From assembly GCA_964016885.1 (NCBI GenBank), contig OZ024740.1, forward strand, positions 399,156,001-399,220,000: a stretch of DNA of 64,000 bases, in the 5' to 3' direction. Of this stretch, positions 277 to 57,393 are shown piece after piece (position 1 is the stretch's first letter; each line of letters begins with the position of its first letter). The DNA comes from Eledone cirrhosa (lineage: Eukaryota). The notes beneath the pieces were generated by a model. That model was given only the letters and a program-made list of their open reading frames with translations, ran no database searches and was not told where the DNA came from. Both the position numbers and the translations under genes were made by a program.

Positions 277-3200
277 CTAGCAGAAGAACCACCCCACGGG
301 TGGTTTTCTGCTAGCATATATAGTGTACATATTTATATATGCACATAGATATGCACATAGATATGATACATAAATTGACAATATGTATATAAACTGAACA
401 AAGACTGTGTTACACTTACTTCTGTAATCAGTAAAGTAATCCATGATACATTTAAAAAAAAGCGATAACGGAGATGGAAAAGCGATGAAACCGTTGACGG
501 AAAATGTTCCTGAATCTTCACTTGAGAATGTCGATGGGAAGCTTCAAGCAGTGAATTTGAAAATAGATGCTGCTGGTATGAATGAATGAATTACATTTAA
601 CAATATGAATAGTTAACCTTCGCTATATTGTTGTTTTACTGTATTCACATATAGACTTCTTAAGTTTTTGTAGTGTCCCTTTTCTAGCAGTTAAAAAGAA
701 ACTGAAATGCATTTCAACTAAAAGAGAGTGATAGCTGTTTCACATCACTGTAGAATTTCTTTGTCGACACAGTTGTCAGCAAACAGACCCCTTTCATTTA
801 ATATTTTTATATTTTCTTTTTTTGTAACTCGTAATAATGCAACATACATTTGACCATGTGAAAAGAATTGTGTTGGTAGATATACACCTATCTTTTCAAA
901 TATCTGCTCTTGTACCTTGTTGCATGTAAGGGCAAAGGCTGGTTTGACAGGAAATTGCTTGCGAATAAAGATGAAAAGGAACTCAAGCTCTTGAGATACA
1001 TGTGGTATCCTTGGGATTAGCAACCTTGTTCCAGCATTGGGACCCAATGCCACTTCAGCTTCAATTACATGATTATGTAAACTCATGATGATGTAACGTG
1101 TACCATTGCAATGCCCGTTTAGAGGATCCAGATTTCTCAGAAGCATGATGCACCTGCCTTTCTTCAGTTTAAGTATGTGTGTTGGGAAGCCTGATGGGGT
1201 AAGTTTGTTGATGAACTCAATTGGATATTGCAGTTCATTATCTACTGTATCAGAGCTTCTGCAGACTATTTCATGACCAGGGAACTTGTTGACCATGAAC
1301 TGATTCACCAATTTTGCTGCATCATTTGTTGGAGTGATAATGGCTCTATTTGCCAGCCATAGTGGGTTTGTGTAGTTTCCTGGAAGATTTGTATACACAA
1401 AATCACACAGTCCAGACACATTACCATATTCCAGACAAAGTTCATTTGGCAGAAGAATTGTGAATGCACCTACAGTTGGAATGTTACCATTTCCCACATC
1501 AAGAAGGTAGTTTGCAAACTGTCTTTCATCAGAATCCTCTGTATTAATTAGCCGTTGATTGGTTGTCATCTCCATGGTTTCCACATAGTCCCAGAGATAG
1601 GATCTCTTGATGGTTGCCTCAACTATTTGTGGTCTAGCACCATGGCATACAACTGGAAGAATTTGCTTCCAGTCACCAGATAGTAATACTGTTAGACCAC
1701 CAAATGGCTTTTTGCAATCTCGAACATCTTTGAAGCTCCTGTCAAGGCATTCAAAGATATGCTTATGTCCCATACCTATCTCATCAATGATTAGCAGGTC
1801 AGCTTGCTGCATAAGTTTACCTGTGTCATCCCTCTTTGTGAAGAAGCAAGTTGATTCAGCAGTCACATTGAGAGGAATCTTGCACTTGGAATGAAGAGTT
1901 CTATCTTTGTGAAGCAAAATGGCTGCTATTCCAGATATGGCAGTGGCAAGTGCAATTTATTTTTTAGATCAGAGGTAATCCAATAGGGTGTTTAGGACAT
2001 AGGTCATTCCTGTACCTGCACTTGCAATCAAGCAGAAAATTCAGTCTTCATTTTCATTTACAGAGGTGATTACTTTGTGAAAAATAACCAGTTGCTCAGG
2101 ATTCAATGTTGGCAGAAGTTCATTTATGTTTGCTTGCAGTTAGTATGTATTGGAATCAGTTTCTGCCAGAAGAACCCTGTTGATTTCTGGTATGGCAACA
2201 ATAGTTGGATCTGGCTGAGGAAGTCCATAGTTGGCATGAATGTCCAAACCATCATGTTGAAGTCTTTGTTGGATCTTCTGTAGTACAATCTGCACGGTTT
2301 GCATGGACATGACTTGCTCATGACGTTCATGCATGATATCCTCTGCAAGACAATTCTTTCATTTCTCCCAGAACTGCAGAGGGTCATTTAACATGCAGTA
2401 CAATAAAATGGTGCAGAAGATCTCTTGCAGCTAAAGACAAAGTGTAATGGATGAGGCCTCTTCCATAACTTTGTCTTTTTCTCCATCTTCATCTAACAGA
2501 CCAAGTTTCCTGCATGCTTCTTGGAATGTTAGAAATTCGACTCTTCAATTGTCCTCAATTCTTTGTATGAAGTTGACCCAGCCTTGTGATGTAGGATCAT
2601 TCTGAGGTAATATAATTCAGATTGATGTCTACTGAGAGATACTGTTGGAATGCGTCCAAGAGATTCACTCATAAATTGTTGATCACCATCCAGATGTCCC
2701 TTTTTTCTTCTTTGCCACTTTTTGTTTGTCCAAGTGAAATATTTAGGAATATCAATATACAATATGTTTTGTGCCAGTGGATCTCTAATATTCAGTTGAA
2801 AATATTCCGTCAACTTAGTCATTGACTGTCCCCTAGAAAAAACACTTTCTTCCTGCCCTCGCTCATACACGACCATTTGTTCCCCAGGTAAATGGCAAGG
2901 CAACTTTTCAACTGGCGGTTTTTGATGATGTAATGGAAATTTATAGATTCTCCAGAATGCTTCACTGGCTGAGATGTACCGTGCATTGATATAGGTCTCA
3001 ATCTCATTTTGGGCATGGACACAATTTCCTTGATCATCCTTAATAGTGAAAGTGATCTTGTCTGATCCTTTCGTGATGTACTTATATAAGTACTTAACAG
3101 CCTTGACACTGTGGACAACCTCACAATTGATGTGGCACTGCTATCTCAATGAGAGGAAAGGGTTGTATGGAGCAATGCAACGATTATCAACAGTAAATTC

Positions 3201-4740
3201 TTGACTTTTAAGTTGGATTGTATGGGGGTGACCACCATCCTGTTTTTCCCTTCTTCTATACTCTGGAAAGGAATTTTCGGCAACAAATGTGGTTTGTCTG
3301 AATGACTTAGGTTAACTTTTTGAGCAATGGCGTTGTTGTCCTAGCCCTTCCATACATGGGCACATCATATTAGCTTGTCCACATGGGCCATGAATGTTGC
3401 AGGATTTGATGATCTTATGCAGAATTGGATTGGTCTCTTTATCAGGAATCTCACAGTACACTACCGGATCAATGGCATCAGCAGTTTTGGGTTTGCTATC
3501 TTCAGCCATTATCAGCAGAATATGAGCATGAGTGCGGCCTCATTTCTGCCACTCTATTGTAGCAGAATGAGCCACAACTTTTCCTAGACTCTTGCACAAA
3601 TATCATGACGGTCTCTAGGTTCTTCACCAGGGTGCAAACTATTTTTTATTTCATCCCAGTTAGCGTTAGTTGTTACCGAGTTGAAATAAGATGGCTTTCC
3701 CATGTGTCGAACCACAGTCATCGAATTCTGAAAGCACTCACTGTAGAAGTGAGGTGAACCATAGATTGAAGGAGGAAGAACAATTCTCCGGCCTGTATTT
3801 ACTGAATCTCCTTCAGCCACAGCATCATACAAACCCTCATACTTTTCAGTTCGTATCATGGTTTGATTGTTGCGGGCGCATTTGAGGCGACAATATTCTA
3901 TTTTTGCCTGGGCATCTACAGCATATTGCTGCATCAGCCGCCTGCTCTTCATGATAATGTTACAGTCACCTTGCCTAACCTGAAACTGATAACAGTAGAA
4001 ATCAGTGAATATGAGTGTGTGGTTGTTGTCAATCCTTTTCAAACCAACCTGAAACCCATCATTCCCCCAAGGAAACAGTAGCACATAATGCAGAGGATCA
4101 TAAGAACGGTGCAACTGATTAATCCTCTGAAGACCACCATCTCTTTTATGAATGATGACATCCAAAAGACCTAATGCTGTATCAGGTTGAATAACAGCAA
4201 TCTCAGATGCCATGGGATGATTATATGTGTGACAATGAAAATCAGTGGGTTTTACTTTGTCAGCATGTAGGACAATATTCACATTTTCTGAGACTGGCAT
4301 TTCAATGACTGACTTGAAGCTTCTTATATAGGTGTTACAGTAGTGCAAGTCTTCTTGCAGGTCCTGCAGGACAGCAGCATCTAAATTAGCATGATGCAAG
4401 CGATTCTGAAGCTCATGAACTGTATCAAAGAAGTAAAGCTGTGCAAACTTGGGTGAAGCATCACTTGGAAGTAGTGATCCAATAATATGACAAATCTTAC
4501 CTTGGATCTTAAATGTGGGACTAAATCCTGGTGCTTTAAGCTCTTTGCAACCAATTGAAGCTAAGGCAAGCACATTGTTATATGCCCGTATCTTATGGAG
4601 AAAAGAATTTCCTGCTTGAGTGATATCGAAATATTTCAGTATATTTGGTGAATGAGGAGGAAGTTGAGGGAGTTTCACTTTTACCTGGAAGCAACACAGA
4701 GATTTGGGTTCATGCGGCCAACGATAAACTTTGCAGTGCT
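277..4740 (-). mobile_element. Decayed autonomous Helitron (Rep-helicase), 5'-truncated
   Basis: Broken - strand frames give a Helitron N-terminal region (3584-4678), Rep HUH motif EWQK*GRTHAHILL (~3513-3552), VKYLYKYITKG (~3065-3098) and a PIF1-like helicase (745-1917: LLIIDE, GDWKQILPV, CNGTR, FSHGQMYVA). The 3' terminus is a hairpin plus CTAG at 277-280 followed by T on the - strand. Confidence 0.93.
745..1917 (-). pseudogene. Helitron PIF1-family helicase domain (pseudogenised)
   Basis: SF1B/PIF1 helicase motifs are present. Walker A upstream is degraded (ASAGTGMT, ~2000-2025), with stops and frameshifts. Confidence 0.9.
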
Positions 4741-5150
4741 CCTACTTATACATACATATATCCTAATTATTTAAATTCTGCATAGCGTCTAAAAATAACG
4801 TTTTTTCATCCCTATACCTCAACCGCATTTGCATACTCATCTTAATAATTTGAAATATCTGACTTTTCTTACCTTTTCCTTCACTATCCAAGAAAAACTT
4901 GAACTGTTAAGGTATCTTTTCTTAGTTAAGTCAACATTTATAAAACAAACTTTGTATTTTATCTGATGAGAGCGTACCAAAGTTTGGTACCCTTGAAATA
5001 TATATAATAGAATAAATATGGTTTTATAAATATAGTTTCCATTAATTTAATATCATTGAATATTATACTCCAGAAAATCTGTCGAGTGCTCTGAATCAGT
5101 TATAAACATTTATATTTGTTGAATTACCAACAAATTGAATATCCCTTTTG
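4741..5150 (+). mobile_element. Putative Penelope-like pLTR fragment, family A
   Basis: Contains a minimal hammerhead at 4955-5014. A second diverged copy is at ~8007-8232. It abuts the 5'-truncated end of the Helitron. Confidence 0.6.
4955..5014 (+). ncRNA. Minimal type I hammerhead ribozyme (HHR-A, copy 1)
   Basis: Stem I tattttat/atagaata; CTGATGA at 4963-4969; stem II gtacca/tggtac; GAAA at 4995-4998; palindromic stem III atatatat; AUA triplet with predicted cleavage after 5006. Confidence 0.8.
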
Positions 5151-8247: not shown

Positions 8248-10828
8248 ATCATCATCATCATCACTGTTTTACGTCCGTTCTTCCAGGAGCTGATCTGGCT
8301 TGAGTTCTACAGCTGGATGCCCTTCCTAACACCAACCTCATTTACAGTGAGTGCTGGGTGCTTTTTCGTGGCGCCTACACGTCTACTTTACAGTGTGGGC
8401 TGGGTGCTTTCGTGCCGTGGCACCTCCACGACCACCTTGCGGTGGGGGGTGTGGGGGCATATTGTCTATATGCTTCAGCTTGTACCCATGGGAGGTTGGG
8501 TACTCTGTATTACTGCGTGACGCCAGAAGTCACGGTCGTGTGTCATTGCCTTTGAGAGGTGTAATTGGGTAAGGTCGGCTTTTATCACCTCATCCCAGGT
8601 CATCTTGGGTCTCCCCACTCCGCGATTTCCATCAACTTCTAGTGCTCTGCACCTTTTTATGCAGCTGTCATCCTTCATACGCATCACATGTCCATACCAG
8701 CGCAACCGCCTCTCCTGCACACAGCATTTGATTCCTCTTATGCTCAGTCTCTCTCTCAATTCATTTATGCTTTGTCGTTCACGTATATTACTGTTACACA
8801 TCCATCGGAGCATGCAGGCTTTGTTTCTCTCTAATCTACGTAAGTCTTCCACCTTCAGCGCCCAGGTCTCACTACCATGCAACATTGCTGTTCGGATACA
8901 CGCATCATACAGTCTGCCTTTCATTCTGAGGGAGAAGCCTTTTGCAGCTAGCAGTGGTAGTAGTTCCCTAAACTTTTTCCATCCTGTTCTTACCCTAGTT
9001 ATTGTACTTTCTGAACACCCACCTCCGCTGCTAATTCGGTCACTTAGGTAGCAGAAGCTGTCTACTGTTTCTACAGAGCCCTCCCAGAGATTGGTGGTAC
9101 TTGTTTCCTGTGGCTGTTTGCTGCTTGCTGTCTCAGCACAGCTGCTGCATGTGAATCCTACATTCTTAATTAAGCTCCTGAGATCCCGCTACATCTCTTG
9201 TGTACCCATTGTTTGCATTTGGGGCAGAGAATGGAGTTCCTACCTACACCTTTCCTACATACTGAGCAAGGCCATTTCCCTGAGGGGATCTGGGTTCTGT
9301 TTTCTCGTCTACTTACAAGGACCTTAGTCTTTGTCATGTTGACTTTGAGACCCTTTCTTTCTAGTCCCTGCTTCCAAGTTTGGAATTTATTCTCTAGTTC
9401 TACCATAGATTCAGCTATGAGTGCGAGGTCATCAGCATACAGGAGTTCCCATGGGCATCCGGTCTTAAACTCCTCCGTTATTGCCTGCAGGACTATGATG
9501 AACAGGAGGGGGCTAAGAACAGAGTCCTGGTGGACCCCAACCTGTACGCTAAATTCCTCGCTATACTCATTGCTAATCCTAACTTTGCTGACTGCTCCCC
9601 TATACATGGCTTGTACCGCTTTCACAAGCCATTCATCTACTCCTAGTTTTCTAAGAGCCCACCAGATTACAGCACGTGGAACTCTGTCAAAGGCTTTCTC
9701 AAGGTCGACAAATGCCAAGTAGAGTGGCTTAGGTACTTTTCCTGGTACTTTTCCTGTAATTGCCTCACAAGGAAGAGGGCATCAGTGGTGCCTCTTCCTG
9801 GTACAAACCCAAATTGCATCTTGTCTATTTTCACCCGGTCCCTAATCAACTGTGCTATAACTCTTTCTGTTACTTTCATGACCTGGTCCATCAACTTTAT
9901 ACCTCTATAGTTTCCACTATCTAGTGCATCGCCTTTACCTTTGTAGCAGTTGACAATGATGCTACTGCACCAATCTTTTGGTATGACACCTTCTAGTATT
10001 ACCTGGTTAACAATACGTGTGGTTATAGTGTGACCTACAGACCCAGATGCCTTCAGCATCTCGGCAGCTATACCCGATGGACCGGTTGCCTTCCCCATCT
10101 TCATATCTTTGATTGCCTTACTTACTATGCTGCTGCTGATTTGTACTGCTGGCCCCTCTATAGGGTCTACTTGGGGTAGGGTCTCTTCTTCCCATGCATT
10201 ATCCTCATTTAGTAATCTATCATAATGACTCTTCCATGCATCTTTCTTCTCAGCACTTGACATCACAACTATCTCTGACACGCTGCCTCGCAATCTTGAA
10301 TACCTCCTGTTTCTGGTCCTCACATTGCAAAACATGCTTGAATTTTCTATCCTCTGCTTCCCTCCTAGCTAAGTATACTTGTCGCCTAGCTTCCCTCTTG
10401 GTCTCTATGTAATGTACCCTGCTCCCCCCGTTCTTCCATTCTTTCCATGCCTGTCTCTTGGCCTTAACTGCTTCATCTACCTTATTGTTCCACCACCAAG
10501 TTACTCTCCTCCTGCTTGAGGTCTTACTCCAGCCACAGACCTCATCCGTCGCCTCTAGTAAATTATTTTTTAGGAACTCCCAGTTCTCTTCTACATTAAA
10601 TGTCTGTATCTGTTCTTCTTTACTGCCGTAGGCGTTGAGTAAAATATCTTTAAATCTGTTACTGGTTGAGGGGACCTTCAGCTTCCAGATCTTTCTTCTC
10701 CAGGTTGGCCTCTGTTTCCAGGTTCGTCTAGTTCTGACCGTGAGGTCGCTGACAACTAAGCTATGTTGGGATGTACATTCCTCACTAGGGAAGGCTTTTG
10801 TGTTTACGTGTTGGGATGTACATTCCTC
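8248..10828 (-). mobile_element. RTE-clade LINE, 5'-truncated and frameshifted
   Basis: RT motifs (NYRGIKL, QFGF, FVDLEKAFDRVP, LLYADD) in ORFs 9667-10335, 9170-9718 and 8475-8924; (GAT)n tail; nearly identical to 28087-30324. Confidence 0.95.
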
Positions 10829-10997
10829 TCTTTATATACTCACACATACAATCTCTCTTTCTCGCTCTAGCAATTTTATGAAATCAAAGAACAACAACAC
10901 ATCAGCGTGTTGAAAAAAATCAAAATCGCTTTATCTTTCTCTTTCACTCTCTATAGTATAGATATACCGGAAGTATTGACATATATGTTTAATCATG

Positions 10998-28086: not shown

Positions 28087-30324
28087 CATCATCATCATCA
28101 TCACCGTTTTACGTCCGTTCTTCCACGCTAGCATGGGTTAGACGGGTTGTCCTGTTGTGGGCAGTGTCTGGTCGGCTGACCATGCCTTGCTCATACAGGA
28201 ACTAATTTGGCTTGATTTCTACAGCTGGATGCCCTTCCTAACACCAACCTCATTTACAGTGAGTGCTGGGTGCTTTTTCGTGGCGCCTACACGTCTACTT
28301 TACAGTGTGGGCTGGGTGCTTTCGTGCCGTGGCACCTCCACGACCACCTTGCGGTGGGGGGTGTGGGGGCATATTGTCTATATGCTTCAGCTTGTACCCA
28401 TGGGAGGTTGGGTACTCTGTATTACTGCGTGACGCCAGAGGTCACGGTCGTGTGTCATTGCCTTTGAGAGGTGTAATTGGGTAAGGTCGGCTTTTATCAC
28501 CTCATCCCAGGTCATCTTGGGTCTCCCCACTCCGCGGTTTCCATCAACTTCTAGTGCTCTGCACCTTTTTATGCAGCTGTCATCCTTCATACGCATCACA
28601 TGTCCATACCAGCGCAACTGCCTCTCCTCCACACAGCATTTGATTCCTCTTATGCGCAGTCTCTCTCTCAATTCATTTATGCTTTGTCGTTCACGTATAT
28701 TACTGTTACACATCCATCGGAGCATGCAGGATTCGTTTCTCTCTAATCTACGTAAGTCTTCCACCTTCAGCGCCCAGGTCTCACTACCATGCAACATTGC
28801 TGTTCGGATACACGCATCATACAGTCTGCCTTTCATTCTGAGGGAGAAGCCTTTTGCAGCTAGCAGTGGTAGTAGTTCCCTAAACTTCTTCCATCCCATT
28901 CTTACCCTAGTTATTGTACTTTCTGAACACCCACCTCCGCTGCTAATTCGGTCACCTAGGTAGCAGAAGCTGTCTACTGTTTCTACAGAGCCCTCCCAGA
29001 GATTGGTGGTACTTGTTTCCTGTGGCTGTTTGCTGCTTGCTGTCTCAGCACAACTGCTGCATGTGAATCCTACATTCTTAATTAAGCTTCCTGAGATCCC
29101 GCTAGATCTCTTGTGTACCCATTGTTTGCATTTGGGGCAGAGAATGGAGTTCCTACCTACACCTTTCCTACATACTGAGCAAGGCCATTTCCCTGAGGGG
29201 ATCTGGGTTCTGTTTTCTCGTCTACTTACAAAGACCTTAGTCTTTGTCATGTTGACTTTGAGACCCTTTCTTTCTAGTCCCTGCTTCCAAGTTTGGAATT
29301 TATTCTCTAGTTCTACCATAGATTCAGCTATGAGTGCGAGGTCATCAGCATACAGGAGTTCCCATGGGCATCCGGTCTTAAACTCCTCCGTTATTGCCTG
29401 CAGGACTATGATGAACAGGAGGGGGCTAAGAACAGAGCCCTGGTGGACCCCAACCTGTACACTAAATTCCTCGCTATACTCATTGCTAATCCTAACTTTG
29501 CTGACTGTTCCCCTATACATGGCTTGTACCGCTTTCACAAGCCATTCATCTACTCCTAGTTTTCTAAGAGCCCACCAGATTACAGCACGTGGAACTCTGT
29601 CAAAGGCTTTCTCAAGGTCGACAAATGCCAAGTAGAGTGGCTTACTTTTAGCTAGGTACTTTTCCTGTAATTGCCTCACAAGGAAGAGGGCATCAGTGGT
29701 GCCTCTTCCTGGTACAAACCCAAATTGCATCTCGTCTATTTCCACCTGGTCCCTAATCAACTGTGCTATAACTCTTTCTGTTACTTTCATGACCTGGTCC
29801 ATCAACTTTATACCTCTATAGTTTCCTCTATCTAGTGCATCGCCTTTACCTTTGTAGCAGTTGACAATGATGCTACTGCACCAATCTTTTGGTATGACAC
29901 CTTCTAGTATTACCTGGTTAACAATACGTGTGGTTATAGTGTGACCTACAGACCCAGATGCCTTCAGCATCTCGGCAGCTATACCCGATGGACCGGTTGC
30001 CTTCCCCATCTTCATATCTTTGATTGCCTTACTTACTACGTTGCTGCTGACTTGTACTGCTGGTCCCTCTATAGGGTCTACTTGGGGTAGGGTCTCTTCT
30101 TCCCATGCATTCTCCTCATTTAGTAATCTATCATAATGACTCTTCCATGCATCTTTCTTCTCAGCACTTGTGAGGGCAAGCTCACCTATATCATTCCGGA
30201 TACACTTCTCTCCAATGACATCACAACTATCTCTAACACGCTGCCTCGCAATCTTGAATACCTCCTGTTTCTGGTCCTCACGTTGCAAAACATGCTTGAA
30301 TTTTCTATCCTCTGCTTCCCTCCT
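28087..30324 (-). mobile_element. Young RTE-clade LINE, 5'-truncated, with uninterrupted RT ORF
   Basis: ORF 28387-30288 (633 aa) with a complete RT (GVHQGSVLSP, YADD), PHD-like finger and RLRWYGHV C-terminus; (GAT)n tail. Confidence 0.96.
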
Positions 30325-30860
30325 CGAGTATATTACTGGTATTTATTTCACTGACAATACAGAGAGAGAAATGGTAAGGAAAGTAAGTGAGAGAGAGGGG
30401 GCAGCAAGCTGAAAGGGAAATTTTTGAGTTCAAATCCTAAACAGGATCCAATTTGCTTTTTATGCCTCCTGGGGTCGATATAATCAACTATACCTTCTCA
30501 CCACAATTCTCATAGAGTGGGGTTGTGGATAGTCAGAGTTGTAGAGCATCAGACAAATGTTTAGTAGTTTAGTATTTCCAATTCTTTATGTTTTGAGTTC
30601 AAATCCCATCCAGGTCAACTTTGTCTTTCGTCCTCCTTATGGCCGATAATATAAAATACCAACCAAGAACTAGGGATCGTTATAATCAATCAACTTGCCC
30701 GTCTCCTAAAATTGCTGACCTCGTGCCAAAATTAGAAAGTACTATACTCATACAGCCCTATCTCTCGGTCTTGGAACAAAATGAAAGCTTTTATTCGTAG
30801 AAATAAATGATTGTGACTAATACAACAGTTGTCTCCCTTAAACGTTTAAATCTAAAGCAA

Positions 30861-41382: not shown

Positions 41383-43794
41383 TCATCATCATCATCATCA
41401 TTTTACGTCCGCTTTTCCCTGCTTGCAAGGGTGGGACGGGTCTTATTCAGCACAGCATCTCTCCACTCGTCACGGTCCCTCGTCATCTCCACCGTGAGCT
41501 TCAATGATCTGAGGTCTGTTCTCACCACCTCCGCCCATGTTTTTCGTGGTCTACCTCTACCACGTCTTCCTTCAACTGGCATTTCCTGGCACTTCTTCAC
41601 CCATCGGTCATCCTCCATGCGCATCACATGTCCATACCACCTCAGTCTCCTCTCCCGTACACTACATTCTATCCCTCTCAGACAGTCTCTCTCTCAACAC
41701 ATTTATGCTGGGTCGTTCACGCACATTTACACTGCACATGCAACGGAGCATCCTTGCCTCATTTCTCTCCAGCCGTCGCATATCCTCTGCAGTTGCTGCC
41801 CATGTCTCACTACCATGCAGCATCGCGCTCCTCACACAGGCATCACACAACCGGCCTTTCGTATGCAGGGAGAAACCCTTCTTCGTCAACAGAGGAAGCA
41901 GCTCCCTAAACTTCTTCCAACCCGTCCTTATTCTAGATACTATGGCCTCGGAACACCCTCCTCCCATGCAAATCTGATCTCCTAGGTACCGGAAGCTATC
42001 CACCACTTCTATAGCGCCCTCTTGCATTTGAAAAATGTGTCTATCAGTGCGACTTCTACTGTCTAATTTCCCTGTACATCTACTGCATACATATTTCTCC
42101 CTACCTGTTAGTTTGCCTGCTATCCCGCTACATCTCTTGTGTACCCAGGATCTGCATTGTGTGCATTTTATAGAATTTATGCTAGTTCCTTTTCTGCATA
42201 TTGAACATGGCCATTTCCCTGACGGAATCAGGGTTTTGTCCTCTTTTCTACTCATCAACACTTTTGTCTTAGCTAGATTCACTCTCAGTCCTCTTGCTTC
42301 CAACTGCTGTTTCCATAGCCAGAATTTATTCTCTATCTCCTCTACTGATTCTGCTATAAGAACCAGATCGTCAGCATAGAGAAGTTCCCATGGACAGCCA
42401 GTCTTAACCTCCTCTGTTATGGCTTGGAGGACTATAATGAACAAGAGCGGGCTGAGGACCGAACCCTGATGTACTCCTACTTGTATCTGGAATTCCTCAC
42501 TAAACTCCATTCCTACCCTGACTTTACTGAGAGTACCTCTGTACAAAGTTTGCACTGTCCTCACAAGCCATTCCTCAACACCTAGCTTCCTTAGGGACCA
42601 CCAGATGACAGATCGGGGTACCCTATCAAAGGCCTTCTCTAGGTCAACAAAGGCTAAGTATAGTGGCTTATTCTTCTCTAAGAACCTCTCTTGCATTTGT
42701 CTCACCAAGAAGAGGGCATCTGTTGTACTCTTCCCAGGCACAAAACCAAACTGCATCTCATCTAGTTTGACCCTTTCTCTAATTAGTTGTGCTAAAATCC
42801 TTTCTGCCACTTTCATAACCTGATCTATCAGTTTTATACCCCTATAATTGCTCCTCTCCAAAGCATCCCCTTTATCTTTGTAGCAATTTATGAGAATACT
42901 GCTGCACCAGTCTTTGGGTATGACACCACCATATATAGCCTGATTGATGATGCGTGCAACCAGTTTAGTGCCTACGTCCCTTGATGCCTTCAGCATCTCA
43001 GCAAGTATTCCCGATGGTCCGGCCGCCTTACCATTTTTCATTTCCCTAATCGCCTCTTGGACCCTATATTCGTCAATCTCAATAGCTGGTCCCTCTGTCG
43101 GATCTACCAAGGGTAATTTCTCTCTCTCCCATTCGTTCTCCACATTCATCAGTCTCTCATAATGACACTTCCAGGCCTCCTTTTTCTGATCATTTGTGAC
43201 ACTAAGTACACCGGCATCATCCCGGACACATTTATCTCCAACAACATCCTGATTTGCATTGGCACACTGCCTTGCAATGTGGAACACCGCACGCCTCTGA
43301 TCATCCCGTCGCAGAACATTGGCAAACCTCCTACTCTCTGCCTCACTGCGTGCTAAGTACACCTGACATCTAGCTTCTCTCTTAGTGGCTGTATATTCTT
43401 CCCTACTCCCACCCTTTTTCCAAGCCTTCCATGCTAGTCTTTTGTCTCTAATAGCCTTATTTACTGTGCTGTTCCACCACCAGGTCACTCTCTGTCTGGT
43501 TGGAGCTCTGCTCCAGCCACAGGTTTCATCAGTAGCCTGCAGCAAGTTGTCACGTAAGAACTTCCAGTTATTATCTATGTCATACGTCTCTAAATCGTCT
43601 TCTTTTTCGTCATATACATCTTGAAGGGCTTTCCTAAATTTGTATTTTAGTGAAAGGTCTTTTAGCTTCCAGACCTTTCTTCTCCACACCTTCCTATATG
43701 TCTCATTCCATCTCTTGCTTACTGAGATATCACTAACAACTAACCTATGCTGTGGGGTACATTCTTCCCCAGGGTATGCCTTGGTATTAGACAC
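41383..43794 (-). mobile_element. RTE LINE, distinct subfamily with essentially no 3' UTR
   Basis: 710-aa ORF 41662-43794 plus a frameshifted C-terminus (41403-41627) whose stop codon runs directly into the (ATG)n tail. Confidence 0.95.
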
Positions 43795-43820
43795 TATATA
43801 TTAGACACTATATATTAGAC

Positions 43821-52179: not shown

Positions 52180-52600
52180 GCATGGCTGAATGGTTAAGAA
52201 GCTCTCTTTTTAATCATTCACTGTAACACCGTGTGACAAGGCTGGCCTTTTGAATGCATCCAATGCATCCAATAGGCTCCCAAACATTTTCCGTTTGGGA
52301 AAGGCATGATGCCATGCAGTGAGTCTGAACCCAGAGTTTAGGGTTCAGACTCACTGCATGGCATCATGTCTTTCACTATAGCCTCTAGTCGACCTAAGCC
52401 TTGTGAGTGAAACTGAATAAACGGAAAATGTTTGGGAGCCTATTGGATGCATTCAAAAGGCCAGCCTTGTCACACGGTGTTACAGTGAATCTTACTCAGA
52501 ATTATGTTATGGGTGCCTGTGTCTTACATGTTAATTTAACGAGTAGGGTGTTCTATTAACAAACAACTAGAATATTGGTTATCAAAATAGATGGAGGTCT
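52180..52600 (+). mobile_element. SINE carrying nested inverted duplications
   Basis: Outer arms 52216-52296 / 52419-52490; inner arms 52299-52333 / 52341-52374. Confidence 0.8.
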
Positions 52601-53385
52601 ACTTATATAATTAAGCATTTTAAAGTTATTTTTAAGTTATTTTTATATATATTTTGTATATATATTTTTATTTATGTTTAAATAAATAAATATTATTTAT
52701 GTAAATATTAACCTGAAAATACAGAATACATTGAATACGTATTTATAAATAACTCTGCACACCCCCCAGTGTCACTTCTTAGCATAGAAAGCTTGCCAAG
52801 GAAAAATGGTTAGGAAGATCCTTTAGTTGTGTAAAAAACGTAACAATCTTCCTAGAGTTGGTGACCTACATGATAAACGTACCCAGTACACACTGTAAAG
52901 TGGTTAGTGATAGGAAGGGCCTCCAGCTGTAGAAAGCTTGCCAAACAAAGGGTTGGGACGTCCCTTCAGTTGTATCAAAACATAACAACCTCCCTAGTGC
53001 TTGTATCACAATGAAATACATTTGGTAGAGTGTGGGACCTTATATAAGTGCGATGCAGACTCCCAGTCTGAGATGTCAGTAGACCAGCTTCAGTACTGAC
53101 TGAGTATATGAAGACCTGTCCAACCTTTGCCAGCAGGGTAAGGAGACATTAAAGGATAATGATGATTAACAAATATACCTTTTTGGGAACAGAACTCTAC
53201 TAATAATATTTTATAAGATGTAGGAGTTATGAAATGTTATTAGACACTAGATATTAGCAATGAGATATTCCTGTGTTTACAAAAGTAGTAAATAAATTTG
53301 CTCAATGTTTACAATAAGAAAAAAGACCAAGTCTAAATGGTGGTTGTACAATATAGAGAAAGTTTGTTATAATAAATATATTAGT

Positions 53386-53680
53386 GTATATATAGTGTAT
53401 TTTGCAATACACTGTATGCTTAATTAAAAGCATTTCGAAGACCTTATGCTATTGTTTTAGAGTAGTGACAGACTCACTTACTTTAATTTTCAGCAAACAG
53501 AGGAGATAAAGCTGACAGGGCCTTGTTTCGCATTTATTGATGCTTATCAAAGCCAACTACTCCTCCTGTTTGCTGAAAATTAAAGTAAGTGAGTCTGTCA
53601 CTACTCTAAAACAATAGCATAAGGTCTTCGAAATGCTTTTAATTAAGCATACAGTGTTTTGAAAAATACACTATATATAC
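53386..53680. repeat. ~120-bp near-perfect inverted repeat
   Basis: Arms 53386-53505 and 53560-53680. Confidence 0.93.
53501..53564 (-). ncRNA. Type I hammerhead with U3-A8 covariant core (HHR-C)
   Basis: The - strand reads aggag tagtt ggct TTGATAA gcat-caataa-atgc GAAA ca-aggccc-tg TC agct ttat ctcct; GUC cleavage triplet. Confidence 0.72.
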
Positions 53681-54899
53681 ATTCATATATATATAGCTAT
53701 TTCAGAGCACCATTTCTAATTTTCAATTTCTGCTTGACCGGCAACCGCTCTGTATAATCAGTTCCTGATTATTTACTAGAATTCTATAAGAACCAAACAT
53801 CCATGATTTCAGCAAACAGGAGGAGTAGTTGGCTTTGATAAGCATCAATTGATGCAGGAGGATGACAAGTATGATGTGATGGGTATATGATAAGTTTAGT
53901 AGAATTTAAAAGGAGTGATGTGAGAGAAAAGAGGAGTATGATTTCAGGTGGAGTGGGGTGAGGGTACAGTGATGAGAACAGTTACTAAAGTGTGATGGGA
54001 TTTAAAAGAGTAAGGGGATGGAGTGATCTTAGCGTGTGTAGGTACTGTGATGATGAGAATAGTTACTAGAGAGAAATGTGTTGGGTGGGGTGTGAGTTTT
54101 CTTGTTAGTCTAATGCATCGATGTTGAGAATATGTAAGAGAAATGTTTCAAAAGATATTTTTAGTAAATAAGGGTCCTATTTGAGTGAATTTTTTCTAGT
54201 TTAATTAACTACAAAAAAAGCTCCCAGTACTCGCAGTAAAGTGATTGACATTAAGAAGGGCATTCAGCGATAGAAACCAAGCCCAAATCAAAACATATAA
54301 GGAAACTGTGGTCACCTGAGACCTGTTTAGCCACATAATGTGACAGCCTGCCTAACCCATGCAAGCATGGAAAATAGACATTAAACAGTGGTGGTGATGA
54401 TGATGATGATAGACACTGGAATAATATAGTTATTCTATGTTGACCCAACATTAGATGAAATTATTGAAATATAACTAAATGTTCCATAAGAATGTTCGGA
54501 ATAAATACCTTATTTTGAGATGTTAACCTGGGAATGCCAGGTTGAACTTTATTCATATAATCTAATCATTGGCTATTTCAACATGTCTCTCTCATTATCC
54601 TCCTGGGTAATGCTGTCTCCATTCTGTCTGCTGGGACCATGAGGCGGTTTGTGCCTGGGGTTCTCAATGCTAGAAAAAAATAGCCCACATTGTCCAGGCT
54701 TGTATCATTGGGGTAGCAATGATTGAGTACTTACTCTTACTAACTTTAACATACCAACTTGTTAATGGAAAATTATCAACATTCTTAGACTCTGTTTTAT
54801 CAAATTTTTCATTTACATTATGAACTTTGTTTGAAATATCTTTGTAACAAGAGGCATCACTGTCATTGATATCTAATCATTGGTTTTATTTCTCTGCAG

Positions 54900-54997: not shown

Positions 54998-57393
54998 GTA
55001 AGAAGAAACATCATCCAATCTAATCCAATCCAGGGCCTTTTCACTTCTTTTGGAGGAACCCCCTCCCAGGTTGACCTTCATCACTTTCTGTCTGGTTTTG
55101 ATCATGTTAGAGGTGTAGCCGTACACACCATGCTTAAATCATCATCTTCATCATAATGATCTATAATGTGGAAAGAGAAAGAAGGCTAAACAATGCAAAA
55201 TGTACTGTAAGATGAGGTTACGAAAAAGTAAGTTACCCGGCAATCTTTGTTTTGTGTTTTGTTGTTGCTATTCTTTCTTCTGTCCTAATATTTTGGGACC
55301 TAAAATCCCCTTCTTCAGAGTTTAAGGAACTTTCAGAGAATAATGATCATTTTCATTGCTATCATCATCGTTATAATCATTATCATTGTCATTGCTGTTG
55401 TCATCGTCATAATGATCATCCCCATTGCCACCACATACAAACTTGCATAACATAGATACATGCATGTATCTATGTTATGCAAGTTTGTATGTCTTGACAG
55501 CACCCCTATGATTCCATCAGGAGTTACGGGTTCATGCATCCATACTAATTATCAATCTTGTTCTTTGATAAGTATGAAGTCTGGTTTCATGTTCACCAAC
55601 GGGCAGCTGATCAGATGTCAACATTCTTTGTCATTTATGCCACAGTGCTCCAAGAATCTTGATCTTTCTTCAATTCATTCTATCATATGTAAACCTGAAT
55701 AACTATCCTGATGTTGCCCAACATGTCCATTGAAAGTGGACACAACATACCCAAATGGTTAAGAGGTTTGCTTCACAATCATTAACTCTTGGGTTTAACA
55801 CCTCCATGTGGCATCTTGGGTATGTGTTATTTATCATAGTCACAGTTCAACCCATGCTTTGTGAGTGAAATTAAGTAGATAGAAACTGTTTAGAAGCCTG
55901 TCATATGGATTGTACCGGTAATTGAAAGGGCCAGCCTTGTCACATACTGTATCATGCTGAATCTCCTTGAGAATTATGTTCAGGGTACATGGGCCTATTA
56001 AATGCTCTGCCATTTACATTAATTTCATAAGCAGACTGCTCTGTTGATTGAACAACTGGAACATTCATTATTGAATCTGACAGAGGTCTATTAATTTCTA
56101 TTGAAATTCCCAGCCATGATAATGAAGTTATTGTCATCTGTTATTGAGGTAGTCTGCAAGGTAACTTCATAGAAATAGTCTTTCTGCCCATCTGTCAGTC
56201 TTGATTGTGCTGCTTAGATAGACATATTAGCCTAAGATAAATTATTCTGTTAAATTATAAATATAAAAGGTTAACTATGCTGTTTGCACACTTCATTTTT
56301 GCCAGATTACTTTAGTAATACCTAGCATAATTACATCTGTTTCAACTCCAGAGGCTCATCAGACCAGAGCTTATCCTGGTTTTATTGGTGTTAAGCAACT
56401 GAGAGAACAAGACTCTTTCATGGATGAGATACCAGTCTGTTGTATGGTTAATTCCCAACTGCTGCTGATATATATTTTTCTGTTGAGTTGGTTGGAGCAA
56501 TGTAGATTGAAGTATCTTGCTCAAGAACAGAATACACCACCTAATCTTGGAATTGAACCTGTAACCTTACAGTTGTGAGCCCAACACCTGACCACTAGAC
56601 CACAAGTTTCATAATTGATTAAATATGTTGAACTGCTATCTAGATGATTAAATTCTTATATATATTAAATCTGAGATTGAAGTGTTACCTAGTATAACAT
56701 TTTTATTTTGCTGTGTTTAAAAGTATGGAATGTGACATTGTATAGTTTAAAAACCATATTGCCTTGAATAAGCAGAGACCATATCAAGTGGTGAGTACCT
56801 CCTTAGTCTTGCAATGTTCAAGGCAAACACACTAGTGTTGGTGTCATGATAAAATTCACCGAGTATACCCTGAAAAGTGATTGGCATTAGGAAAGGCACC
56901 CAGCTGTAGAATGCATGCTAAAAATGAAACATATGAGCTAGACGTGTTTTTCCACCCCATGCTAGCATAGAAAATGGACATAAAATAATGATGATTGCAT
57001 TATATGATATTAAAATGGTTTCACTGAGCTGCCATGGTATTTCCAAGATGACAAATGACAAGGTTTACTGCATAGTTACTAAAACATCAAAATAGGTTTT
57101 GCACAGTACCAGAATGGCTATAATGGTAATCAGTCTTATCTGAATAGGAATTTAGATATTTGGCAAGCCATTTTGGTTTTAAATTGCCATTGGCATGTTT
57201 GGGAACTTAAAAATTCAAATCCTTATCCATTCTTTTCAGTTTTGACACTGTATCTCTTGCCATTTTGCAACTAGACTTATATAACAATTAACACAATTCT
57301 AGTTTATGGATTGCTATTTTAGGAGACATGGTATTCTGTAATACTTAAGAATTGAAACCTTATATAACATGTAACTCTACATATCTTTGGCAG

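What the first reader, a model, noticed from the sequence alone, without database searches (positions are those of the whole stretch)
53386..53860. U3-A8 covariant hammerhead in the loop of a ~120-bp inverted repeat
Seen: the spacer of the inverted repeat (- strand 53564-53501) reads ggct-TTGATAA-gcat(caataa)atgc-GAAA-ca(aggccc)tg-TC-agct. This is a hammerhead in which C3 and G8 are both changed to U3 and A8, with a GUC triplet and a near-palindromic loop III. The repeat arms extend stem I into a ~120-bp helix. A + strand 5' half-copy at ~53807-53857 keeps TTGATAA and has a different but paired stem II (gcatc-aatt-gatgc). Known: the 3-8 Watson-Crick pair is required for catalysis and U3-A8 is a functional swap. 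Inference: a third, unrelated HHR family, probably an inverted pLTR remnant of a PLE or a retrozyme-like non-autonomous element.
Basis: partly seen in the sequence, partly recalled or inferred. Interest (0 to 1): 0.75.

Follow-up and report, generated by a model that had tools for sequence, protein, structure and literature searches.

The report
U3-A8 hammerhead retrozyme, Penelope-style insertion
This is one damaged copy of an abundant 320-base non-coding repeat that carries a predicted self-cutting RNA with a known two-letter swap in its core; copies sit back to back in TA repeats with two fixed ends, so the repeat is likely pasted in by a Penelope-type jumping gene, and the long hairpin around this copy is likely a by-product of that insertion.

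Summary
The hammerhead is there as described (minus strand, U3 at 53550, predicted cut 53514/53513). It belongs to a ~320-nt non-coding unit with over 3,000 core matches genome-wide (control 3), in dispersed copies and tandem arrays of up to 17 units: an animal non-LTR retrozyme. A sister clade has C3-G8. With the same flanks the counts are U3-A8 2117, C3-G8 830, mismatched 36 and 34, so the swap is a real covariation; it is already published for natural and Penelope hammerheads. The 129-bp inverted repeat is not part of the ribozyme. Insertions are two head-to-head, 5'-truncated arms with variable junctions, and this junction type has only 9 strict matches. The half-copy is the next tandem unit, cut off, with two loop bases changed. 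Of 27 two-armed insertions, 24 end with exactly one ~25-nt tail, in (TA)n: the Penelope-like-element signature, also shown by a U3-A8 Neptune element here. The helper is not identified; cleavage, expression and circles are untested. The scan noted the same system on other DNA of this genome.

The parts
53372..53578 (-). Left arm of the insertion: 5'-truncated unit (positions 114-320 of the 321-nt reference copy), with the complete hammerhead; its 3' end at 53372 is the no-tail end, in decayed TA-rich DNA
   Evidence: 96.6% over 207 nt to a real copy, L003
53510..53554 (-). Type I hammerhead core with U3-A8; stems I (4 bp), II (4 bp), III (3 bp); predicted cut between 53514 and 53513 after GUC; loop III is one base off the family palindrome (53518)
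53487..53578 (-). Natural extended stem I (segments a and a' of the unit, about 16-20 bp beyond an internal loop), with compensatory changes between clades
   Evidence: helix 1: 16 pairs, 8 with changes on both sides, 91.7% paired
53560..53578 (.). Head-to-head junction: 19 nt explained by both arms, because the two sides of stem I are complementary
   Evidence: L001: left 5' end at 114, right at 187, overlap 19
53560..53855 (+). Right arm: unit positions 187-321, then 1-162 of the next unit; its 3' part, where the tailed end is expected, is lost
   Evidence: 97% identity; for intact relatives
53372..53694 (.). The 129-bp inverted repeat (53372-53500 / 53566-53694): the same unit segment read once in each arm
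53696..53720 (+). Internal copy of the ~25-nt tail segment, between the two fixed 3' end points used by the family
53807..53855 (+). 5' half of the second hammerhead (TTGATAA at 53835-53841), cut at the end of stem II; two loop bases changed so that the stem-loop is a perfect 14-nt palindrome
53856..54130 (+). Old, unrelated dispersed repeat entered in its middle (72-85% to other copies): right flank after a deletion or rearrangement

Best explanation
The locus is a secondarily truncated insertion of a ~320-nt non-coding tandem unit with a U3-A8 type I hammerhead (an animal non-LTR retrozyme), likely copied into TA-rich DNA in trans by the reverse transcriptase-endonuclease of a Penelope-like element (PLE). 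Shown: unit, arrays, covarying fold, two head-to-head 5'-truncated arms, two fixed 3' ends about 25 nt apart with one used per arm, and (TA)n flanks. Inferred cycle: tandem transcripts would cleave as hammerhead dimers paired through the palindromic loop III, and monomers would be circularised. The PLE enzyme would cut both strands in (TA)n and prime one cDNA from each, one at each internal start site. Both cDNAs run through the cleavage site, so the template was circular or uncleaved. The two 5' ends are then joined head to head, here through 19 nt of stem I self-complementarity. That join places the hammerhead in the loop of a 129-bp inverted repeat.
For: Copy number 3053 vs control 3. Arrays at 316-321 nt period, up to about 17 units. 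Structure: 93.5% of 952 cells paired, 15 of 30 pairs with changes on both sides, covariation 0.38 vs 0.07-0.12 for slid partners, on 32 hand-picked copies. Position 3/8 counts with the same flanks: U-A 2117, C-G 830, C-A 36, U-G 34. Loop III stays self-complementary in several different sequences; self-duplex -19.5 kcal/mol. A circular monomer folds at z -4.9 against 60 shuffles. Of the first 47 distinct loci listed, 34 have a head-to-head junction. Of 27 with both outer ends intact, 24 have exactly one tail (p 5e-5 against 0.5), and 24 of 26 tails abut (TA)n. The C3-G8 clade gives 14 of 16. Both arms are of the same subfamily in 23 of 25 loci. The genome holds a near-intact Neptune-type PLE (RT, Zn linker, GIY-YIG) whose inverted copies follow the same one-end-each rule in 6 loci. 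An inverted 5' copy, a one-sided 30-40 bp tail and microsatellite targets are PLE hallmarks (PMC3846280, PMC8557442); the tail equals the gap between two RT start sites in vitro (PMC11167929).
Against: No cleavage, expression or circle was shown. In Xenopus only 1 of 9 predicted retrozyme dimers cleaved in vitro (bioRxiv 10.64898/2026.07.22.740005). A subfamily with an extra A between stem II and G12 has amplified (6 of the first 100 matches; 26 of 195 extracted copies, duplicates included), so a canonical core may not be strictly required. The 3-8 covariation rests on two clades, which is probably one double change, not thousands of events. 5' ends are not enriched at the cleavage site (6 of 64, p 0.10). 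The helper is not identified: the Neptune pLTR does not align to the unit (score 31 vs shuffles 32 +/- 4.7), its tail is 68 nt rather than 25, and the one apparent fusion (L046) has a tail at both outer ends, which fits two separate insertions better. 19 of 47 loci gave one arm end or none. L039 and L040 are duplicates, and L177 is doubtful.
Confidence: 0.8

Rival explanations
1. The unit is a non-autonomous PLE derivative copied from uncleaved linear tandem transcripts; the hammerhead is kept for transcript trimming or is weakly active, and no circle is involved.
For: Hammerhead cleavage was not needed for PLE insertion in vitro and uncleaved RNA was the main substrate (PMC11167929). The monomer is predicted to misfold. 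The extra-A subfamily spreads. Units within a locus are not identical (median 4%). This differs from the best reading only in the template.
Against: All three stems, the 3-8 pair and the loop III palindrome covary across subfamilies. Arrays of 6-17 units are easier to make on a circle. Within-locus divergence is about twice the distance to the nearest outside copy, as expected if identical units decayed after insertion.
Confidence: 0.35
2. Solo inverted pLTR remnants of an autonomous PLE, with arrays made later by unequal crossing-over, as satellites are.
For: PLE 5' truncation leaves inverted pLTR pairs with hammerheads 100-700 bp apart on opposite strands (PMC4209133). Local amplification is proposed in bioRxiv 10.64898/2026.07.22.740005.
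Against: Upstream of the hammerhead the copies examined continue into the previous unit, not into a coding region. No homologous pLTR beside an ORF turned up in the 50 loci fetched around GIY-YIG hits; the one match, L064, is a separate insertion after a PLE end. Multi-unit arms carry the same fixed ends and inverted partner as single units. The search sampled only 50 of 10,596 GIY-YIG candidates.
Confidence: 0.1
3. The long hairpin is a selected RNA structure, in which a ~120-bp stem I forces the hammerhead fold or makes dsRNA, or the element is a MITE-like unit with terminal inverted repeats.
For: The junction through stem I recurs in about 13 of 28 distinct loci chosen for likeness to the window, in several subfamilies.
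Against: 0 of 34 junctions in the unselected set are of this type, and the strict pattern has 9 matches genome-wide (a lower bound). The long arms do not improve the predicted active fold (7.7 kcal/mol penalty with or without them). Junction points are scattered along the unit.
Confidence: 0.04

Closest known systems
Animal non-LTR retrozymes (Cervera and de la Pena 2020, PMC7229834; Li, Clavereau and Pollet 2026, bioRxiv 10.64898/2026.07.22.740005)
   Same: Non-coding 170-400 nt tandem units of low GC, one type I hammerhead per unit, short helix III with a palindromic loop suggesting dimers, thousands of copies, self-paired predicted circle, coexistence with PLEs.
   Different: U3-A8 core in the larger clade. 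Two-armed head-to-head insertions with a one-sided tail in (TA)n are not described in the parts of these papers I read ('inverted' 0 times in PMC7229834; once, in the references, and 'tail' 0 times in the preprint). Expression and circles are not shown here.
Hammerheads in pLTRs of Penelope-like elements, including the U3-A8 variant of Schistosoma Cercyon elements (Cervera and de la Pena 2014, PMC4209133)
   Same: U3-A8 covariation (about 1,300 hits reported there), opposite-strand pairs a few hundred bp apart, dimer-type architecture.
   Different: No ORF. The hammerhead has a real helix III and a long extended helix I, unlike the minimal PLE motifs.
PLE insertion anatomy and internal RT initiation (PMC3846280, PMC8557442, PMC11167929); non-autonomous Chlamys elements such as MRC1
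   Same: Partial tandems, inverted 5'-truncated copy, tail at one end, AT or microsatellite targets, two fixed 3' ends about 140 and 165 nt downstream of the cleavage site.
   Different: The tail is about 25 nt (30-40 in print; 68 in the Neptune here). There is no detectable sequence homology to a sampled autonomous partner. MRC1-type elements belong to a clade that mostly lacks hammerheads.
Natural U3-A8 hammerheads (Perreault et al. 2011, PMC3088659)
   Same: The same compensatory swap, reported in several natural examples and stated there to be active in vitro.
   Different: Here both versions occur within one homologous repeat superfamily in one genome.

Membership tests
Type I hammerhead ribozyme | Conserved core (N3 UGA N7 N8 A, GAAA, UH) with a Watson-Crick 3-8 pair | tested here: met
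   2947 of 3017 pattern matches are U-A or C-G
Type I hammerhead ribozyme | Three helices supported by compensatory change | tested here: met
   helix I 1 of 4 core pairs and 8 of 16 extension pairs, helix II 4 of 4 with double changes; helix III's three pairs never vary, but its loop palindrome covaries
Type I hammerhead ribozyme | Rfam gathering score | tested here: not met
   HH9 25.3 bits vs 52; no other hammerhead model listed at E<=1
Type I hammerhead ribozyme | Self-cleavage after the UH | not testable with these tools
   Monomer predicted to misfold by 4.3-7.7 kcal/mol
Animal non-LTR retrozyme | Tandem 170-400 nt unit, low GC, a hammerhead in each unit | tested here: met
   316-324 nt period, arrays up to about 17 units; the window copy itself holds one whole and one cut hammerhead
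Animal non-LTR retrozyme | No protein coding; no LTR-type ends | tested here: met
   No ORF of 150 aa or more at the locus; no RT-like ORF inside units; ends are the two fixed points. PBS and PPT were not searched separately.
Animal non-LTR retrozyme | Expressed as linear and circular monomer RNA | not testable with these tools
   No run on record as RNA was available
Autonomous Penelope-like element | RT plus GIY-YIG ORF between pLTRs | tested here: not met
   Units follow units; a same-strand pair 3.25 kb apart was an array split by a Tc1/mariner and another insert
PLE-mobilised non-autonomous element | Inverted 5'-truncated partner, one-sided tail, microsatellite target | tested here: met
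   34 of 47, 24 of 27, 24 of 26
PLE-mobilised non-autonomous element | Sequence shared with an autonomous partner's pLTR | tested here: inconclusive
   Only the U3-A8 core, three pairs of stem II and a 7-nt end motif are shared with the Neptune of L093; no significant alignment; 50 of 10,596 candidate loci sampled
PLE-mobilised non-autonomous element | Target-site duplication | tested here: inconclusive
   Ends merge into (TA)n, which hides any duplication

The most novel reading that the evidence does not exclude
Animal retrozymes are inserted by a dimeric Penelope-type enzyme that primes two cDNAs on one circular ribozyme RNA, one from each cut DNA strand and one from each of two fixed start sites, copies round the circle, and joins the two 5' ends head to head, sometimes through the ribozyme's own stem I. 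The U3-A8 clade arose from a C3-G8 clade by a double core change that may track a U3-A8 Neptune helper.
Probability: 0.3. Interest if true: 0.7.

Novelty: new member of a known kind. Interest (0 to 1): 0.42.

Why it matters
Which enzyme moves animal retrozymes is still a hypothesis in print: PLEs are called a strong candidate (PMC7229834) or inferred from co-occurrence and pLTR trees (bioRxiv 10.64898/2026.07.22.740005). This family carries the PLE insertion signature on thousands of young copies, with both 3' ends mapped, so the published in vitro PLE assay (PMC11167929) can test it directly. It also offers natural C3-G8, U3-A8 and extra-A versions of one ribozyme for comparison.

Tried and rejected
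RNA evidence: no RNA holder listed; only contigs of unknown kind from one sample could be laid, which show nothing on expression or cleavage. Autonomous parent: a same-strand pair 3.25 kb apart was an interrupted array. A C3-G8 search keeping the GC ends of stem II returned 39 matches; those listed have other stem II sequences, and the 12 loci fetched did not align to the unit. 50 loci around GIY-YIG hits had no homologous pLTR. An alternative upstream sequence seen as a loose end had 0 matches in the assembly. L046 as a retrozyme-Neptune chimera: rejected as weak, since both outer ends carry a tail. Enrichment of 5' ends at the cleavage site: not significant. A first scripted end classification was faulty because its anchor was palindromic, and was replaced; my earlier hand count (24 of 26) is superseded by 24 of 27. 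The 30 loci were chosen by likeness to the window and are biased towards its junction, so they were not used for frequencies. Literature: searches for retrozyme + octopus, U3-A8, and retrozyme + Penelope + inverted + pLTR + target-primed, and two related searches found no description of this family or of two-armed retrozyme insertions; the library lacks most subscription papers and Repbase. The preprint's supplements were closed and may list comparable cases.

Full report
Observation. It lies between arms 53372-53500 and 53566-53694 (129 nt, 96%). Rfam sees it only below threshold (HH9, 25.3 bits against 52). The window lies in a 2.996-Gb genome and is rich in LINE-like and Helitron-like frames (names recalled from the translations). 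An earlier scan note calls the genome cephalopod; I did not test that.

The family. A DNA search gave 2049 candidates, of which 40 were scored. The core pattern has 3053 exact matches against 3 for the control. Read in the sense of the ribozyme, the element is a 316-324 nt unit: spacer, stem I 5' side, core, stem I 3' side, then about 115 nt ending in a TA run. Units follow each other head to tail, from partial dimers to about 17 copies. No coding frame lies in them. A sister clade, 75-80% identical, has C3-G8. With the same flanking pattern the genome holds U3-A8 2117, C3-G8 830, C3-A8 36 and U3-G8 34 (controls 0). Only paired versions have amplified, but this probably reflects one double change between two clades. 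On 32 copies that I picked from the 116 distinct variants, 93.5% of cells pair, 15 of 30 pairs change on both sides, and all four pairs of stem II do. Two of the five shuffle measures (number of pairs with double change, further pair types) did not exceed the shuffles. Loop III stays self-complementary in several sequences and lengths. The family loop forms a self-duplex of -19.5 kcal/mol and no stable hairpin, and the monomer is predicted to prefer an inactive fold by 4.3-7.7 kcal/mol, which fits cleavage as dimers as in amphibian retrozymes (PMC7229834). The window copy has one substitution in that palindrome (-11.1 kcal/mol). A monomer folded as a circle gives z -4.9 against 60 shuffles.

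The inverted repeat. In the first 47 distinct loci listed, taken in order, 34 have two arms joined head to head, with 5' ends scattered over the whole unit and mostly 0-6 nt of overlap or a short insert. In the window the left arm starts at unit position 114 and the right at 187, and 19 nt are explained by both, because these are the two complementary sides of stem I. This junction type recurs in about 13 of 28 distinct loci chosen for likeness to the window, in different subfamilies, but in 0 of 34 unselected junctions, and a strict pattern finds it 9 times in the genome (a lower bound). It is a recurrent but rare outcome of insertion. The long arms do not change the predicted folding penalty. 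The conserved extension of stem I is only 16-20 bp.

The half-copy. 53694-53855 is positions 1-162 of the next unit at 97.5%. Stem II strands are unchanged; two loop bases differ and perfect the palindrome, and the sequence then enters the middle of an old unrelated repeat. I read this as a later deletion with a small templated change at the break (inference). Contigs of one sample span both outer breakpoints.

The ends. Arms stop at one of two points about 25 nt apart. Among the 47 loci, 27 keep both outer ends: 24 have one tailed and one untailed end, 2 have none and 1 has two (p 5e-5 against 0.5, the highest share that independent choice could give). One locus had a cut end and 19 gave one arm end or none. 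24 of 26 tails abut (TA)n. The C3-G8 clade gives 14 of 16, among 34 loci. L039 and L040 are duplicates. The two arms are of the same subfamily in 23 of 25 loci. These are the hallmarks of Penelope-like elements: an inverted 5'-truncated copy, a 30-40 bp tail at one end and a microsatellite bias (passages of PMC3846280 and PMC8557442). In vitro, the tail is the gap between two internal RT start sites, both DNA strands are cut and extended, AT-rich DNA is preferred, and the protein is predicted to be a dimer (PMC11167929, parts 1-2 of 4). The first end lies 143 nt downstream of the cleavage site, and arms, the window's included, read through that site, so the template cannot have been a cleaved linear monomer. 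5' ends are not enriched at the site (6 of 64, p 0.10).

The helper. The genome has 10,596 GIY-YIG candidates. One family (L093) has a 938-aa frame with RT, a cysteine linker and GIY-YIG, which I place with Neptune by that linker, and a minimal U3-A8 hammerhead in both pLTRs. Its inverted copies use one end each in L098, L101, L104, L127, L149 and L175. It shares the U3-A8 core, part of stem II and a 7-nt end motif with the retrozyme, but its tail is 68 nt, the pLTR does not align, and the apparent fusion in L046 has two tailed outer ends. It is a candidate only.

Comparison. It meets the sequence criteria of animal non-LTR retrozymes (PMC7229834, part 2 of 6 and passages; bioRxiv 10.64898/2026.07.22.740005, parts 1-3 of 5 and passages; supplements closed). 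Expression and cleavage could not be tested. It is not an autonomous PLE. U3-A8 is published for natural hammerheads (PMC3088659, passages) and for Schistosoma PLE hammerheads (PMC4209133, part 1 of 4). A review (PMC11722881, passages) also names PLEs only as possible helpers. My searches found no account of two-armed, one-tailed retrozyme insertions. I looked up the scan's earlier notes after reaching my reading; they describe the same system for other units in this genome, and none matched this sequence. They are not independent support.

Verdict. This is a new member of a known kind. Its value lies in the insertion anatomy of the family rather than in the U3-A8 swap or the hairpin. Interest 0.42.

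Noticed in passing
L093:773-5940 (-), G000:C1:145870000-145877000: Near-intact Neptune-type PLE, about 5 kb unit, with a minimal U3-A8 hammerhead in each pLTR and two fixed 3' ends 68 nt apart; many young copies.
   Followed up: partly
L008, L009, L011, L012, L014, L016, L017, L025, L027, L148, L158, L171: Amplified subfamily with one extra A between stem II and G12 of the core; activity unknown.
   Followed up: partly
G000:C2:83744007-83745209; C1:47998767-47999127; C1:255497266-255497626: U3-G8 wobble variants occur in all listed copies of some single insertions, on both strands in the first case, so they seem to have been inserted as such; C3-A8 variants are nearly all isolated.
   Followed up: no
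window 53581-53589 and 53696-53705 (+): The unit has a donor-like GTAAGT after stem I and an acceptor-like TTTCAG at the start of the tail in both clades; PLE pLTRs can hold an intron. Not tested.
   Followed up: no
window 4963 and 8056 (+): Two related C3-G8 hammerhead motifs with an AT-palindromic stem III, unrelated by BLAST to this family.
   Followed up: no
L031:1615-5934: Retrozyme array interrupted by a Tc1/mariner-like element (inserted in the unit's TA run) and by a second insert in stem III.
   Followed up: partly
window 52216-52490 and 55426-55499: Other inverted repeats: nested perfect arms at 52216-52490 (MITE-like) and a 74-nt palindrome at 55426-55499.
   Followed up: no
L058:970 (+): A further U3-A8 hammerhead with different stems, apparently another family.
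   Followed up: no
window 745-4741 (-); 8475-10831, 28387-30342, 41662-43800: Helitron-like helicase fragments and several LINE-type RT frames (names recalled from the translations).
   Followed up: no
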